Virus genome (UHGV): UHGV-0215671
From: a virus
Strand: one strand, 5' to 3'
Length of the DNA stretch: 13,254 nt
The notes under the pieces are model-generated. The model saw only the letters and a program-made list of their open reading frames with translations. It did no database searches and was not told the DNA's origin. The position numbers and the translations under genes were made by a program. Position 1 is the stretch's first letter. Each line of letters starts with the position of its first letter. Below are positions 10,727 through 12,340 of the stretch, one piece after another.

Positions 10727-10756
10727 TATTTTTTAGTGGTTGTCAAGAACTTTTTT
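10727..10756 (-). promoter_or_regulatory. Promoter-like TTGACA-N18-TAAAGT upstream of the tRNA array
   Basis: Plus-strand TGTCAA 10751-10756 and ACTTTA 10727-10732; about 20 nt upstream of the tRNA-Pro 5' end. Confidence 0.45.
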
Positions 10757-10855
10757 AAAATATTTTTCAGTATCTTAGAAAAGCTCTCATTTCGTTTCTA
10801 TGTAGAACATATTAAAGGGTATCAAACACATTGTCAATACCCTTTTTAAAACTTT

Positions 10856-12271
10856 TTACCAGATGTAACGGTCAATCATTACTGCTTTGAGCATTACGCT
10901 GATTGGGTCAAACTTCTCACCACCAAGCAGAGCTTTTAAAGTGGCTGGAGAGAACCCTGATACCATTGCTACACCATTATCCTTAACAGATACTTCGCAA
11001 GTACCATTACGGTTTGCTAAGTACCAGAATACTAGTTGTGGCATTTCGTATCCAGCTTTTTTGTACTTACTCTGAATTGCTTCAAAGTTTGTACGACCAT
11101 TTGCACCATCAACCTGATTAAACTCCATATCAGAGAAGATGATAAGCTTACTTGGCATATCTTTCTGAGTCAAGTTGTTTCTCTTACCTATCTCAAGAAT
11201 GCGGTCAAAAGCTGCTTGTAAGTTAGTTGAGCCATATTCAACATGACGCATTACCTGACGATGACGGTTTCGTAAATCACCACTCAGTTCGATGAAGTGA
11301 GGGTTTGTTGAATAAACCATTAACTCATTCTTAAAGCAACCTGTATTGCGTTCTGCTACATACAAGGCAAGTGATACACCAATATCAAGGGCAGTGATTG
11401 AACCAAGATTCACCCAAGACATTGAGCTTGAAACATCAGTCATACACAAGATGTTTTCACCCTCTGCCATCCAGTTTGGTAGTGCTTTCCACTGCTCATT
11501 AGCAACATCTGCATTACCATACTTGATAGATTTAATCACATCGTATGGGTAAACAGCACCAGCGTTAATCTCAGCCTCACCTTTTGAGAGGGACTCAATG
11601 TAAGCTTTGTAACGTTCCCCATCTTTACGGTTAAAGAGCTTTTGGTAACGTGCAGCAGCGAGTGAAGGAATCTTGCTGTAGTCAATCTTACCAAACTCAT
11701 TAGCAGAGATTTTTTGCTCAACTGTATCAGACAGTGCAGATAACAGTGTGCGATACTCCTTCTCACTTAAGTTTGCAAACTTACAGAAACGTTTTACAAA
11801 CTGTTTGTGGCGTGGTTTTACTCGTGGTAACCACTTAGCTGCTAAACCTGCTGTTGCAGGGTCTAGTAATGCTGCTTCTAAATGTTTGAAGGCATCTGTC
11901 TCAAAACGAGTACCTACGAAGATTTTGAAGTCATCAAAACGACCAAGCTCTGCAATCTTATCCATAATGCGAAGAACCTGTGTAGGTTCTAAAACTTTAT
12001 CTTCAATCGCTTGAAGTAAAACAGTTCGGAAAGCTTTACGCTCACCCATACCTTCTCTTACATCTCGCATATGCAGTAAAATACGAACTGCAACATCAAC
12101 ATCCTCACGCAAAGCTTTGTAGAACAGGTCTGGTAAGATTTCTACATTGCTACGGCTTGAGCCAGCGGCTTTGTAGAAGTCTACCAGAGCAGACATTGAT
12201 GAAGTATGGTTTACAGCACCATTTTCAGTTCGACCTGCATGAAGGTGTGCATGTTTAAATAATTCGCTCAT
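10856..12271 (-). CDS. Ro60/Rsr-like protein with C-terminal vWA domain, 471 aa
   Basis: ORF track. C-terminal half carries a vWA MIDAS DVSSSM followed by LGSI, then GSTNLQAAF and KLIIFSDMEF; the same succession as recalled for human Ro60 (DVSASM..LGSI, GGTDCSLPM, DVFIVFTDNETF). N-terminal 250 aa helical, size compatible with a TROVE domain. Assignment is from memory. Confidence 0.65.
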   Translation of the reverse strand: MSELFKHAHLHAGRTENGAVNHTSSMSALVDFYKAAGSSRSNVEILPDLFYKALREDVDVAVRILLHMRDVREGMGERKAFRTVLLQAIEDKVLEPTQVLRIMDKIAELGRFDDFKIFVGTRFETDAFKHLEAALLDPATAGLAAKWLPRVKPRHKQFVKRFCKFANLSEKEYRTLLSALSDTVEQKISANEFGKIDYSKIPSLAAARYQKLFNRKDGERYKAYIESLSKGEAEINAGAVYPYDVIKSIKYGNADVANEQWKALPNWMAEGENILCMTDVSSSMSWVNLGSITALDIGVSLALYVAERNTGCFKNELMVYSTNPHFIELSGDLRNRHRQVMRHVEYGSTNLQAAFDRILEIGKRNNLTQKDMPSKLIIFSDMEFNQVDGANGRTNFEAIQSKYKKAGYEMPQLVFWYLANRNGTCEVSVKDNGVAMVSGFSPATLKALLGGEKFDPISVMLKAVMIDRYIW

Positions 12272-12310
12272 ATTTTACTCTCTTCTCTCATTTGTTGTTT
12301 GATGTGACAG

Positions 12311-12340
12311 ACTTTAGAGTAACTTTGTAGAGTCTGTCAA
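12311..12340 (-). promoter_or_regulatory. Promoter-like TTGACA-N18-TAAAGT upstream of the Ro60-like gene
   Basis: Plus-strand TGTCAA 12335-12340 and ACTTTA 12311-12316, same hexamers and spacing as 10727-10756; overlaps a 9-bp inverted repeat TGACAGACT/AGTCTGTCA. Confidence 0.45.

What the first reader, a model, noticed from the sequence alone, without database searches (positions are those of the whole stretch)
10727..12340. Two promoters with identical hexamers and spacing (TTGACA-N18-TAAAGT)
The promoter-like sites upstream of the tRNA array (10727-10756) and of the Ro60-like gene (12311-12340) share the same -35, the same unusual -10 TAAAGT and 18-nt spacing, suggesting co-regulation of the two modules. 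A third site inside the array (9290-9318) is near-consensus TTGACA-N17-TATAGT.
Basis: seen in the sequence. Interest (0 to 1): 0.45.

Follow-up and report, generated by a model that had tools for sequence, protein, structure and literature searches.

The report
Host-type promoters in Felix O1-like phage
The two look-alike sites are most likely ordinary promoters read by the host's main RNA polymerase in a Felix O1-like phage, one for an RNA-binding protein gene and one for the tRNA cluster; their exact identity is a habit of this phage lineage, not a demonstrated regulatory code.

Summary
The window is a Felixounavirus (Felix O1-like myovirus), with every gene on the minus strand. TTGACA-N18-TAAAGT is real. 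That is three copies against 0.04 expected, and they are the only three in a complete 87.6-kb relative.

Alignments across genera show a promoter-type footprint: the -35 is invariant, the spacer varies, and the -10 keeps T1, A2 and T6. Site A also has a perfect UP element (14/14) and a TGn extended -10. Sites B, 10837 and A share a YACAT motif where transcription should start.

The identity between A and B is not preserved. Mooglevirus has A = N18/TATAGT and B = N17/TAGAGT, Kolesnikvirus has A = N17/TATGAT, and EC6 has A = N17. TAAAGT is simply one of two or three favoured -10 hexamers in this lineage. The sites are therefore probably real sigma-70 promoters, but specific co-regulation is not established. 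It gets only weak support from coarse Felix O1 RT-PCR timing.

Site B and the 9318 site were already predicted or annotated elsewhere. Site C shows suppressed synonymous change and is probably an internal promoter for head genes. No transcription start has been mapped.

The parts
12311..12340 (-). Site B: core promoter TTGACA (12340-12335) - 18 nt - TAAAGT (12316-12311), upstream of the Ro60-like / vWA 'RNA-binding protein' gene
   Evidence: Exact match. TGTTGACAG and TA[A/G]AGTCTGTC are invariant in 23 unique sequences while the spacer varies, including a 1-nt indel. Already predicted for UAB_Phi87 (Table S1, position 5,726) and annotated in MZ726792.1 with a different -10 choice.
12341..12364 (-). 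A/T-rich UP-like tract of site B (AAAAAATAATTTTAAAAGGTG); it overlaps the stop codon of the DUF5681 gene
   Evidence: 11 of 14 specified positions of the UP consensus AAAWWTWTTTTNNNAAA, among the top 6 of 101 TTGACA sites in Phi87. Consensus verified in PMC2412878.
12305..12339 (-). Palindrome TGACAGACT ... AGTCTGTCA bridging the -35 and the region just after the -10 of site B
   Evidence: Read from the sequence. RNA fold -15.6 kcal/mol, z = -3.4. GACAG and CTGTC are invariant. Unique in the Phi87 genome. Function unexplained.
12301..12305 (-). Predicted start region of site B (cACATC); predicted start at A 12305 or A 12303
   Evidence: Inference from the 6-8 nt distance to the -10 and from the YACAT motif shared with sites A and 10837. 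Not mapped experimentally.
10856..12271 (-). 471-aa Ro60-like / vWA / DUF2828 'RNA-binding protein' gene (Felix O1 ORF42), the unit driven by site B
   Evidence: ORF list. Annotation in relatives.
10814..10845 (-). Hairpin AAAGGGTAT-N14-ATACCCTTT directly after the Ro60-like stop codon; equals Felix O1 terminators t42/t43
   Evidence: Terminator scan. Fold -12.6 kcal/mol, z = -2.0. Listed as t42/t43 in PMC3185647. Invariant stem in the footprint.
10809..10837 (-). Upstream tandem promoter for the tRNA array: TTGACA (in the terminator loop) - 17 nt - TAATAT, followed by tACATAGAA
   Evidence: UP score 10/14. Conserved; Silverhawkium has TAAGAT, keeping T1, A2 and T6. YACAT start motif.
10717..10746 (-). 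Site A: core promoter TTGACA (10746-10741) - 18 nt - TAAAGT (10722-10717), with TG at 10725-10724 (extended -10), upstream of tRNA-Pro
   Evidence: Exact match; TG flagged. CTTGACA invariant and -10 TA[A/T]AGT in 23 unique sequences. Positionally conserved in Mooglevirus (TATAGT), Kolesnikvirus (N17 TATGAT) and P778 (TTGACG-N17-TAAAGT).
10751..10767 (-). Full UP element of site A: AAAAATATTTTAAAAAA
   Evidence: 14 of 14 specified positions of AAAWWTWTTTTNNNAAA, the best of all 101 TTGACA sites in the 87.6-kb reference genome. Its position is 1 nt closer to the -35 than canonical.
10691..10710 (-). Predicted 20-nt leader from the predicted start (A 10710 in tACATAG) to the first base of tRNA-Pro (10690)
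   Evidence: Inference: 7 nt after the -10, pyrimidine-purine CA; tRNA coordinates. Not mapped experimentally.
5657..10690 (-). tRNA array: 25 ARAGORN tRNAs, one weak Rfam-only tRNA, and small ORFs; the unit downstream of sites 10837 and A
9290..9318 (-). Internal array promoter TTGACA-N17-TATAGT, equal to Felix O1 'P45'
   Evidence: Same hexamers and spacing at Felix O1 25600-25628, which is the position published as P45. Annotated as a promoter in MZ726792.1.
1870..1899 (-). Site C: third exact TTGACA-N18-TAAAGT, inside the 166-aa ORF (Felix O1 ORF54 homologue) between portal and head-protein genes; probable internal promoter
   Evidence: Lies in the longest invariant run of the ORF in 31 unique sequences. 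Retained as N18/TAAAGT in Yersinia phage P778 and as N18/TACAGT in a 47%-identical homologue. Identical codons at conserved residues: 15/15 inside against 21/43 outside, Fisher p = 2e-4.

Best explanation
The window comes from a Felix O1-like myovirus (Felixounavirus), and everything in it is transcribed on the minus strand. The two sites are host sigma-70-type promoters. Site B (12340->12311) starts a short unit holding only the Ro60-like RNA-binding protein gene, which ends at the hairpin terminator t42 (10845-10814). Transcription of the tRNA array is then re-initiated by two tandem promoters. The first (10837->10809) has its -35 in the terminator loop. The second, site A (10746->10717), combines a perfect UP element for the RNA polymerase alpha subunit, a consensus -35, a TGn extended -10 and the hexamer TAAAGT. 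It should start about 20 nt before tRNA-Pro, leaving a leader for RNase P to remove. A consensus -35 plus an UP element gives strong polymerase recruitment, and a sub-consensus -10 with an 18-nt spacer is the expected compromise that avoids slow promoter escape. This last step is inferred from general promoter knowledge, not shown here. The identical hexamers and spacing reflect a design favoured by this phage lineage (TTGACA, 17-18 nt, TA(A/G)AGT, start at YACAT), not a dedicated co-regulatory signal. The same design occurs a third time, inside a coding gene (1899->1870), where it probably boosts transcription of the head genes. Shown here: sequence presence, statistical excess, conservation footprints, UP match, and synonymous-site constraint at site C. 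Inferred: polymerase recognition, start sites, strength and timing.
For: Identity of the window: 97-99% matches to Felixounavirus genomes. Pattern excess: 3 observed against 0.04 expected, and the only 3 in an 87.6-kb genome. Strand and position: all sites are on the coding strand; A and B are intergenic, directly upstream of tRNA-Pro and of the Ro60-like ATG. Footprint: in 23 unique sequences per region the -35 is invariant, spacers vary (including indels), and the -10 changes only at position 3. Across genera the -10 drifts (TAAAGT, TATAGT, TATGAT, TAGAGT) and the spacer is 17 or 18, always keeping T1, A2 and T6. UP element: site A 14/14, best of 101 TTGACA sites; B 11/14; 10837 site 10/14; consensus checked in PMC2412878. 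About 13 of 27 TTGACA-N16-19-TANNNT sites in Phi87 are intergenic and sense-oriented in a roughly 90% coding genome. YACAT follows the -10 at B, 10837 and A: 4 of 27 sites against 0.33 expected. Terminator between the units. Felix O1 encodes no RNA polymerase or known sigma-modifying proteins, according to PMC3185647. Independent predictions exist for site B and the 9318 site. Site C.
Against: No transcription start has been mapped for any Felix O1-like phage in the searchable literature, so function rests on sequence and conservation alone. The whole Ro60-to-tRNA intergenic region is highly conserved, so conservation of the site A hexamers within the genus is not very discriminating; the cross-genus comparison carries that argument. 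The generic consensus scan finds no more promoter-like sites in the window than in shuffles (33 against 29.1), so only the best sites stand out. The UP element of site A sits 1 nt closer to the -35 than canonical. The site B palindrome and its invariant CTGTC are not explained by a plain promoter model. Site C has only an average UP score and no YACAT, and it lies in the most conserved protein segment of its ORF, so part of its nucleotide conservation could be protein-driven. The RT-PCR grouping of ORF42 with ORF44, apart from the ORFs after P45, could mean that A and B do form a distinct temporal class.
Confidence: 0.68

Rival explanations
1. One reading: TTGACA-N18-TAAAGT is a distinct, jointly regulated promoter class (for example a 'middle' class whose weak -10 and long spacer make it depend on a phage factor or on the DNA state later in infection). 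It would tie together expression of the Ro60-like gene, the tRNA array and, through site C, the head genes.
For: Three exact copies are the only ones in the genome. The distant phage P778 keeps TA(A/G)AGT at the equivalent positions of the same module: 5 sites against 0.235 expected. A and B share a TTTTAAAA tract and YACAT. Felix O1 RT-PCR: ORF41, 42 and 44 peak at 25 min, while ORF45, 46, 48 and 49, after the near-consensus P45, peak at 5 min.
Against: The identity is lost in Mooglevirus (A N18/TATAGT, B N17/TAGAGT), Kolesnikvirus (A N17/TATGAT) and EC6 (A N17). No shared extra motif that could bind a factor was found; the palindrome occurs only at B. TAGAAT and TAGGCT recur in the same way. 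ORF41, with a different -10, is in the same RT-PCR class, so read-through explains the timing equally well. The RT-PCR is end-point and internally inconsistent: the major capsid gene is scored at 5 min. No sigma-modifying factor is known in Felix O1.
Confidence: 0.17
2. At site B the functional element is the palindrome, not (or not only) a promoter. It could be an operator for a dimeric regulator covering -35 to +1, or an RNA hairpin in read-through transcripts from the upstream DUF5681 gene that acts as a processing or stability element. On this view the hexamer match to site A would be partly incidental.
For: A 9-bp perfect inverted repeat, TGACAGACT/AGTCTGTCA; fold -15.6 kcal/mol, with 2 of 200 shuffles as stable. 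GACAG and CTGTC are invariant while the intervening spacer varies. It is unique in the genome. A mirror-image promoter-like site lies on the other strand (GTGACA-N18-TAGAGT).
Against: The inner arm positions are not maintained by compensatory change: GACAGGCT and GACAGGTT variants break pairs. It is absent from the P778 equivalent. No T-run follows it, so it is not an intrinsic terminator. GACAG is largely dictated by the -35 itself. This does not exclude promoter function.
Confidence: 0.1
3. Site C is not a promoter. Its nucleotide conservation reflects a strongly constrained protein segment (EIVKIPFDSS..GVKLY) together with codon preference, and the hexamer match is a by-product.
For: The conserved nucleotides coincide with the conserved residues, and the variable spacer coincides with the variable residues (CLL / ANI / CKV). 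The UP score is average and there is no YACAT. The window-versus-L042 comparison is not significant (13/15 against 40/61, p = 0.1). A different predicted promoter (TTGTCA-N16-TATGAT, window 1722-1695) lies closer to the head-protein gene.
Against: Identical codons at conserved residues number 15/15 inside against 21/43 outside for window versus P778 (p = 2e-4), and 13/16 against 22/53 for L042 versus P778 (p = 0.005). It is the only stretch of the gene still alignable by blastn in P778. Where the protein changes K to Q, the -10 becomes TACAGT, still keeping T1, A2 and T6.
Confidence: 0.35
4. The matches are chance consensus look-alikes in AT-rich phage DNA and have no function.
For: The generic consensus scan finds as many promoter-like sites as in shuffled sequence (33 against 29.1). 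No experimental start-site data exist.
Against: The exact pattern occurs 3 times against 0.04 expected. The sites have strand and position specificity, a cross-genus footprint with drifting spacers and retained key positions, and a perfect UP element at site A.
Confidence: 0.04

Closest known systems
E. coli sigma-70 promoters with UP elements, as in rrnB P1 and the tandem rrn P1/P2 arrangement
   Same: Consensus or near-consensus -35. An A/T-rich UP element matching AAAWWTWTTTTNNNAAA (site A 14/14). Two tandem promoters about 90 nt apart in front of a stable-RNA operon (10837 and A), with the transcript processed into tRNAs.
   Different: The spacer is 17-18 nt rather than the 16 nt of rrn P1. 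There is no GC-rich discriminator, so nothing suggests stringent control. The -10 is TAAAGT/TAATAT rather than TATAAT. The UP element sits 1 nt closer than canonical. The first promoter is embedded in a terminator hairpin.
Published predicted promoters of Felix O1-like phages: P41, P45 and others in Whichard et al. 2010 (PMC3185647); the 42 BPROM sites of UAB_Phi87 in Bardina et al. 2016 (PMC4837284); promoter features in GenBank MZ726792.1
   Same: Same phage group and the same kind of element. The 9318 site is P45. Site B is the UAB_Phi87 '5,726 TTGACA / CTCTAAAGT' entry and is annotated in MZ726792.1.
   Different: Site A (the tRNA-array promoter with a perfect UP element), the 10837 site read as a promoter, and site C are absent from all three sources examined. 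MZ726792.1 pairs the site B -35 with TCTAAA at N16, which the cross-genus footprint does not support.
Phage T4 early, middle and late promoters
   Same: A virulent myovirus that uses host RNA polymerase. tRNA genes are clustered and expected to be expressed from host-type promoters. Early T4 promoters are strong sigma-70 promoters with A/T-rich upstream regions.
   Different: There is no MotA-box (TGCTT near -30) and no late TATAAATA element at these sites. Felix O1 has no known sigma-appropriation or late-sigma genes, so consensus -35 promoters also precede structural genes.
Overlapping terminator-promoter modules in compact phage genomes
   Same: The hairpin t42 ends one unit, and a -35 in its loop starts the next. 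The same design appears between rIIA and rIIB in Phi87.
   Different: Not characterised experimentally in this phage group. The terminator is weak (-12.6 kcal/mol, interrupted T-run), so read-through is likely.

Membership tests
Sigma-70 (housekeeping) -35/-10 promoter | -35 hexamer close to TTGACA | tested here: met
   6/6 at sites A, B, C, 10837 and 9318. Invariant in 23 unique sequences and across genera, apart from TTGACG in the P778 equivalent of site A.
Sigma-70 (housekeeping) -35/-10 promoter | -10 hexamer with the key positions T-12, A-11 and T-7 | tested here: met
   TAAAGT is 4/6 to TATAAT with T1, A2 and T6 present. All evolutionary variants (TATAGT, TATGAT, TAGAGT, TACAGT, TAAGAT) keep those three positions.
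Sigma-70 (housekeeping) -35/-10 promoter | Spacer of 16-18 nt (17 optimal) | tested here: met
   18 nt at A, B and C; 17 nt in EC6 (A), Mooglevirus (B), Pistou (A) and at the 10837 and 9318 sites.
Sigma-70 (housekeeping) -35/-10 promoter | Located upstream of, and oriented toward, a transcription unit | tested here: met
   A lies 27 nt before tRNA-Pro and B 40 nt before the Ro60-like ATG, both on the coding strand. C is inside a coding gene, 242 nt before the next gene's start.
Sigma-70 (housekeeping) -35/-10 promoter | A primary transcript 5' end about 7 nt downstream of the -10; dependence on sigma-70 holoenzyme | not testable with these tools
   No start-site data for this phage group in the literature searched. 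Only coarse RT-PCR timing is available.
UP element (alpha-CTD binding site) | Match to AAAWWTWTTTTNNNAAA at about -57 to -41 | tested here: met
   Site A 14/14 (best of 101 sites), B 11/14, 10837 site 10/14, C 8/14 (near the genome median). Consensus verified. Met for A; partial for B; not met for C.
UP element (alpha-CTD binding site) | Stimulation of transcription that depends on the alpha C-terminal domain | not testable with these tools
   Needs in vitro transcription with wild-type and alpha-CTD-deleted polymerase.
Extended -10 promoter (TGn) | TG at -15/-14, one base upstream of the -10 hexamer | tested here: met
   Site A: TG-T-TAAAGT, also in three P778 sites. Not met at B (CTC-TAAAGT). 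At C the TG directly abuts the hexamer.
Rho-independent terminator (t42) | GC-containing hairpin followed by a T-run, at the 3' end of a gene | tested here: inconclusive
   12-pair stem with only 3 GC pairs, -12.6 kcal/mol, z = -2.0; the T-run TTTAATATGTT is interrupted. Listed as t42/t43 by the Felix O1 authors. Efficiency unknown.
T4-type middle or late promoter | MotA box (TGCTT near -30) or late TATAAATA at -10 in place of a -35/-10 pair | tested here: not met
   Direct reading of the three sites shows TTGACA at -35 and no TGCTT or TATAAATA.
Dedicated co-regulated promoter class (regulon signature) | A shared extra motif or strict hexamer and spacing identity maintained by selection across relatives | tested here: not met
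   The identity of A and B is lost in Mooglevirus, Kolesnikvirus and EC6. The palindrome is found only at B. Only a loose lineage preference for TA(A/G)AGT remains.

The most novel reading that the evidence does not exclude
TTGACA, 17-18 nt, TA(A/G)AGT may be a distinct temporal promoter class of the Ounavirinae. Its deliberately weak -10 and long spacer would make firing depend on a phage-induced change, either an unknown factor or altered DNA topology. It would coordinate three modules that serve bulk late translation: an RNA quality-control protein (Ro60-like), the tRNA array and the head genes. The head-gene copy is written into coding sequence and preserved at synonymous sites down to about 36-47% protein identity. 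This would give a first handle on the open question of how Felix O1 orders its gene expression without a polymerase or sigma factor of its own.
Probability: 0.1. Interest if true: 0.5.

Novelty: new member of a known kind. Interest (0 to 1): 0.24.

Why it matters
Temporal control in Felix O1-like phages is explicitly unresolved (PMC3185647), and these phages are widely used for Salmonella and E. coli typing and biocontrol. This work gives a corrected promoter map of the Ro60-like/tRNA module: a monocistronic RNA-binding-protein unit, a terminator, tandem tRNA promoters (one with a textbook UP element), and a probable internal head-gene promoter hidden in coding sequence. That map supplies concrete targets for start-site mapping and for engineering. 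Beyond that the elements are ordinary host-type promoters. Their shared hexamers do not by themselves reveal a new regulatory mechanism.

Tried and rejected
(1) A genome-wide class. I scanned the complete UAB_Phi87 genome expecting many TTGACA-N18-TAAAGT sites and found only the same three, so there is no large class.

(2) Duplication origin of A and B. Their spacers share 9 of 18 positions within Felixounavirus, but the P778 equivalents share nothing. I rejected this as the main explanation.

(3) An inverted repeat bridging the -35 and -10 as a shared operator. Site A has a 7-bp repeat (AACCACT/AGTGGTT; fold z = -1.95), but it is broken in many relatives (AATCACT, AAACACT). Its geometry differs from the site B palindrome, and site C has none. 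I rejected it as a common feature; it stays unexplained for B only.

(4) Rfam scan for Y-RNA-like or other RNAs that the promoters might drive: only tRNAs were found.

(5) Distant Ro60-like loci (29-40% identity, L072-L076): no TTGACN...TANNNT upstream, so the promoter is not linked to the gene beyond the Ounavirinae-like lineage.

(6) Literature searches for Felix O1 or Felixounavirus start-site or RNA-seq data: none found.

(7) Two script calls failed because locus L002 appeared to be missing on the script machine; I re-fetched the same region as L003. The later listing shows L002 was stored, inside another locus file.

(8) The generic promoter scan shows no excess of promoter-like sites over shuffles, so it is not useful on its own.
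Full report
**What the window is.** The 13,254-nt window matches Felixounavirus genomes (Felix O1-like myoviruses such as UAB_Phi87, ZX4221 and KEP2) at 97-99.5% identity. All 25 ARAGORN tRNAs and all long ORFs are on the minus strand. By comparison with annotated relatives, the order in the direction of transcription is as follows:
- a DUF5681 gene (12757..12353; Felix O1 ORF41);
- a 471-aa Ro60-like/vWA 'RNA-binding protein' gene (12271..10856; ORF42);
- the tRNA array (10690..5657);
- a small ORF;
- terminase (5227..3611);
- portal (3603..2128);
- a 166-aa ORF (2128..1628; ORF54);
- the head-protein gene.

**Checking the observation.**
- TTGACA-N18-TAAAGT lies exactly at 12311-12340, as stated.
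- The second copy is at 10717-10746, not 10727-10756; both are on the minus strand.
- The TTGACA-N17-TATAGT site at 9290-9318 is confirmed.

Three matches compare with 0.04 expected from dinucleotide-preserving shuffles, and none of 200 shuffles reached three. In the complete 87.6-kb UAB_Phi87 genome the pattern occurs only at these same three places (simulated mean 0.045). The type phage Felix O1 has all four sites.

**Are they promoters?** I call 12340->12311 site B, 10746->10717 site A and 1899->1870 site C.

*Position and strand.* A and B are intergenic, on the coding strand, and directly upstream of tRNA-Pro and of the Ro60-like start codon.

*Footprint.* I aligned 23 unique sequences for each intergenic region (IMG/VR loci plus the window).
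- At B, TGTTGACAG and TA[A/G]AGTCTGTC are invariant, while the spacer between them varies and has a 1-nt indel.
- At A, CTTGACA is invariant and the -10 is TA[A/T]AGT.

| Phage group or phage | Site A | Site B |
|---|---|---|
| Felixounavirus | TTGACA-N18-TAAAGT (N17 in phage EC6) | TTGACA-N18-TAAAGT |
| Mooglevirus | N18-TATAGT | N17-TAGAGT |
| Erwinia phage Pistou (Kolesnikvirus) | N17-TATGAT | the phage lacks the Ro60-like gene |
| Yersinia phage P778 (DNA essentially unalignable) | TTGACG-N17-TAAAGT | TTGACA-N18-TAGAGT |

 Every variant keeps T1, A2 and T6 of the -10. That is the pattern expected for sigma-70 recognition, and not for a sequence conserved for some other reason.

*UP element.* I scored the 22 nt upstream of all 101 TTGACA sites in Phi87 against the UP consensus AAAWWTWTTTTNNNAAA, which I verified in PMC2412878.
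- Site A scores a perfect 14/14, the best in the genome.
- Site B scores 11/14.
- The neighbouring 10837 site scores 10/14.
- Site C scores 8/14, close to the median.

*Other features.*
- Site A has a TGn extended -10.
- About 13 of the 27 TTGACA-N16-19-TANNNT sites in Phi87 are intergenic and sense-oriented, in a genome that is about 90% coding.
- Sites B, 10837 and A share YACAT 6-8 nt after the -10. This occurs at 4 of 27 sites against 0.33 expected and is a plausible common start.

Felix O1 encodes no RNA polymerase and no known sigma-modifying proteins, and its authors proposed host-type promoters. No transcription start has been mapped in any source I could search. Function therefore remains an inference, though a well-supported one.

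**Transcription-unit anatomy.** Site B would drive a unit containing only the Ro60-like gene. Directly after that gene's stop codon comes the hairpin 10845-10814 (-12.6 kcal/mol), which the Felix O1 paper lists as terminators t42/t43. The loop of that hairpin carries another TTGACA. With TAATAT 17 nt downstream, it forms a conserved promoter-like site (10837->10809). Site A follows 91 nt further on. The tRNA array therefore seems to be served by two tandem promoters, the second with a textbook UP element. The predicted start at A 10710 would leave a 20-nt leader before tRNA-Pro. The arrangement resembles the tandem P1/P2 promoters of rRNA operons. It differs from them in spacer length and in lacking a GC-rich discriminator. 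The 9318 site re-initiates inside the array and is the published Felix O1 P45.

**Does the identity of A and B mean co-regulation?** Mostly not.
- The identity holds only within Felixounavirus. In Mooglevirus the two promoters differ in both the -10 and the spacing, in EC6 they differ in spacing, and in Kolesnikvirus the -10 of site A is different again.
- TAAAGT is one of the two most enriched hexamers 17-18 nt after TTGACA in both Phi87 and P778 (3 observed against about 0.15 expected in each).
- TAGAAT (3 against 0.05) and TAGGCT also recur in Phi87.
- With about 14 promoters drawing on so small a -10 repertoire, a pair that agrees in hexamer and spacing is unremarkable.
- I found no shared operator-like motif.
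- The inverted repeats that bridge -35 and -10 differ in geometry. The one at A is broken in many relatives, and the strong one at B is unique in the genome.

- P778 keeps TA(A/G)AGT at four equivalent positions of the same module, part of 5 such sites genome-wide against 0.235 expected.
- A and B share the TTTTAAAA tract and YACAT.
- Felix O1 RT-PCR puts ORF41, 42 and 44 in the 25-min class and ORF45, 46, 48 and 49, downstream of P45, in the 5-min class.

That assay is end-point and inconsistent, since the major capsid gene is scored at 5 min. ORF41 has a different -10 yet falls in the same class, so read-through explains the timing just as well. I rate the specific co-regulation reading at about 0.17.

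**Site C.** This was the unexpected part.
- In 31 unique sequences the ORF has 108 variable positions out of 501. Nucleotides 214-266, which contain site C, have only one, and they include the longest invariant run.
- In P778 the only blastn-alignable stretch of the gene is the 108 nt around site C.
- There TTGACA-N18-TAAAGT is retained although the spacer and the encoded residues changed, from SSCLLG to SSANIG.
- In a 47%-identical homologue (L042) it reads TTGACA-N18-TACAGT.

| Comparison | Identical codons at conserved residues, inside site region | Outside | Fisher p |
|---|---|---|---|
| Window vs P778 | 15/15 | 21/43 | 2e-4 |
| L042 vs P778 | 13/16 | 22/53 | 0.005 |
| Window vs L042 | 13/15 | 40/61 | 0.1 |

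 This indicates constraint at the nucleotide level. It fits an internal promoter ahead of the head-protein, protease and capsid genes. However, the segment is also the most conserved part of the protein, its UP score is average, and it has no YACAT. I give the promoter reading about 0.55-0.65 for this site.

**What was already known.**
- Site B is in the BPROM table for UAB_Phi87 (position 5,726, TTGACA / CTCTAAAGT).
- Site B is also annotated as a promoter in GenBank MZ726792.1, but paired with TCTAAA at N16. The cross-genus footprint favours TA(A/G)AGT instead.
- The 9318 site is Felix O1 P45, and the hairpin is t42/t43.
- Site A, the promoter reading of the 10837 site, and site C are absent from the three sources I examined.

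**Verdict.** The elements are most likely ordinary sigma-70-type promoters of a well-known phage group, so this is a new member of a known kind. Specific co-regulation is not established. The mildly interesting residue is threefold: the perfect UP element in front of the tRNA array, the terminator-embedded tandem promoter, and the synonymous-site-constrained site C. Interest: 0.24.

Noticed in passing
window 12619-13254 (junction at about 12737/12738): The last 119 nt (13136-13254) are a perfect reverse complement of 12619-12737. Window 12300-12737 matches UAB_Phi87 5723-6160 in forward orientation, and window 12736-13254 matches 6561-6042 in reverse, so there is a single non-native junction. 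This looks like a fold-back assembly artefact at a contig end. It alters the N-terminus of the DUF5681 ORF (134 aa against 123 aa) and places the upstream double-TTGACA promoter (12999-13027) on the wrong strand.
   Followed up: yes
window 8918-8996 (minus strand): A 26th, weak tRNA found only by Rfam (31.7 bits; gathering score 29) and missed by ARAGORN. It corresponds to a 'tRNA-Arg' annotated in UAB_Phi87.
   Followed up: partly
window 12305-12339 (minus strand): A 9-bp perfect palindrome, TGACAGACT/AGTCTGTCA, spans the site B promoter. GACAG and CTGTC are invariant in 23 unique sequences while the spacer varies. It is unique in the reference genome and absent in P778. Possibly an operator or a read-through RNA hairpin; unexplained.
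   Followed up: partly
window 8997-9289 (minus strand): The near-consensus 9318 promoter is followed by about 290 nt with no tRNA and no convincing ORF before the weak tRNA at 8996. Felix O1 and other relatives carry HNH endonuclease genes or different content in this part of the array, so what this promoter drives in the window is unclear.
   Followed up: no
L001 (UAB_Phi87) 27992-28021, minus strand: The rIIA-rIIB intergenic region reads TTGACA-AGGGGCTTTGAAGCCCCT-TAGAAT, a GC hairpin inside a promoter spacer. This is the same 'terminator inside promoter' design as window 10845-10809, which suggests a recurrent compact module in this phage group.
   Followed up: no
L001/L003 (UAB_Phi87) record positions 6297, 17279 and 52538, minus strand; window 12999-13027: A separate promoter family with two TTGACA boxes 6 nt apart (AAAAAGTTG-TTGACAAnGTACTTGACAAGGTGT) sits in the divergent intergenic regions. 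The Felix O1 paper reported finding almost no promoters in those regions.
   Followed up: no
L006 (Erwinia phage Pistou) about 2480-2570: An unannotated tRNA-like element (T-arm GGGTTCGAGTCCC) lies between the DUF5681-like gene and the tRNA-Pro promoter. Pistou lacks the Ro60-like gene at this position.
   Followed up: no
L043 (Yersinia phage vB_YenM_P778) 12297-17815: The record annotates no tRNAs, but ARAGORN finds 26 in the syntenic array. The ORF54 homologue there is a much longer 413-aa protein (ORF039).
   Followed up: partly
GU169904.1 'Staphylococcus phage SA1' 145090-146943 (hit H32): A record labelled as a Staphylococcus phage contains this Felix O1-like Ro60/tRNA module at 95.7% identity over the full query. 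It is probably a mixed or chimeric deposit.
   Followed up: no
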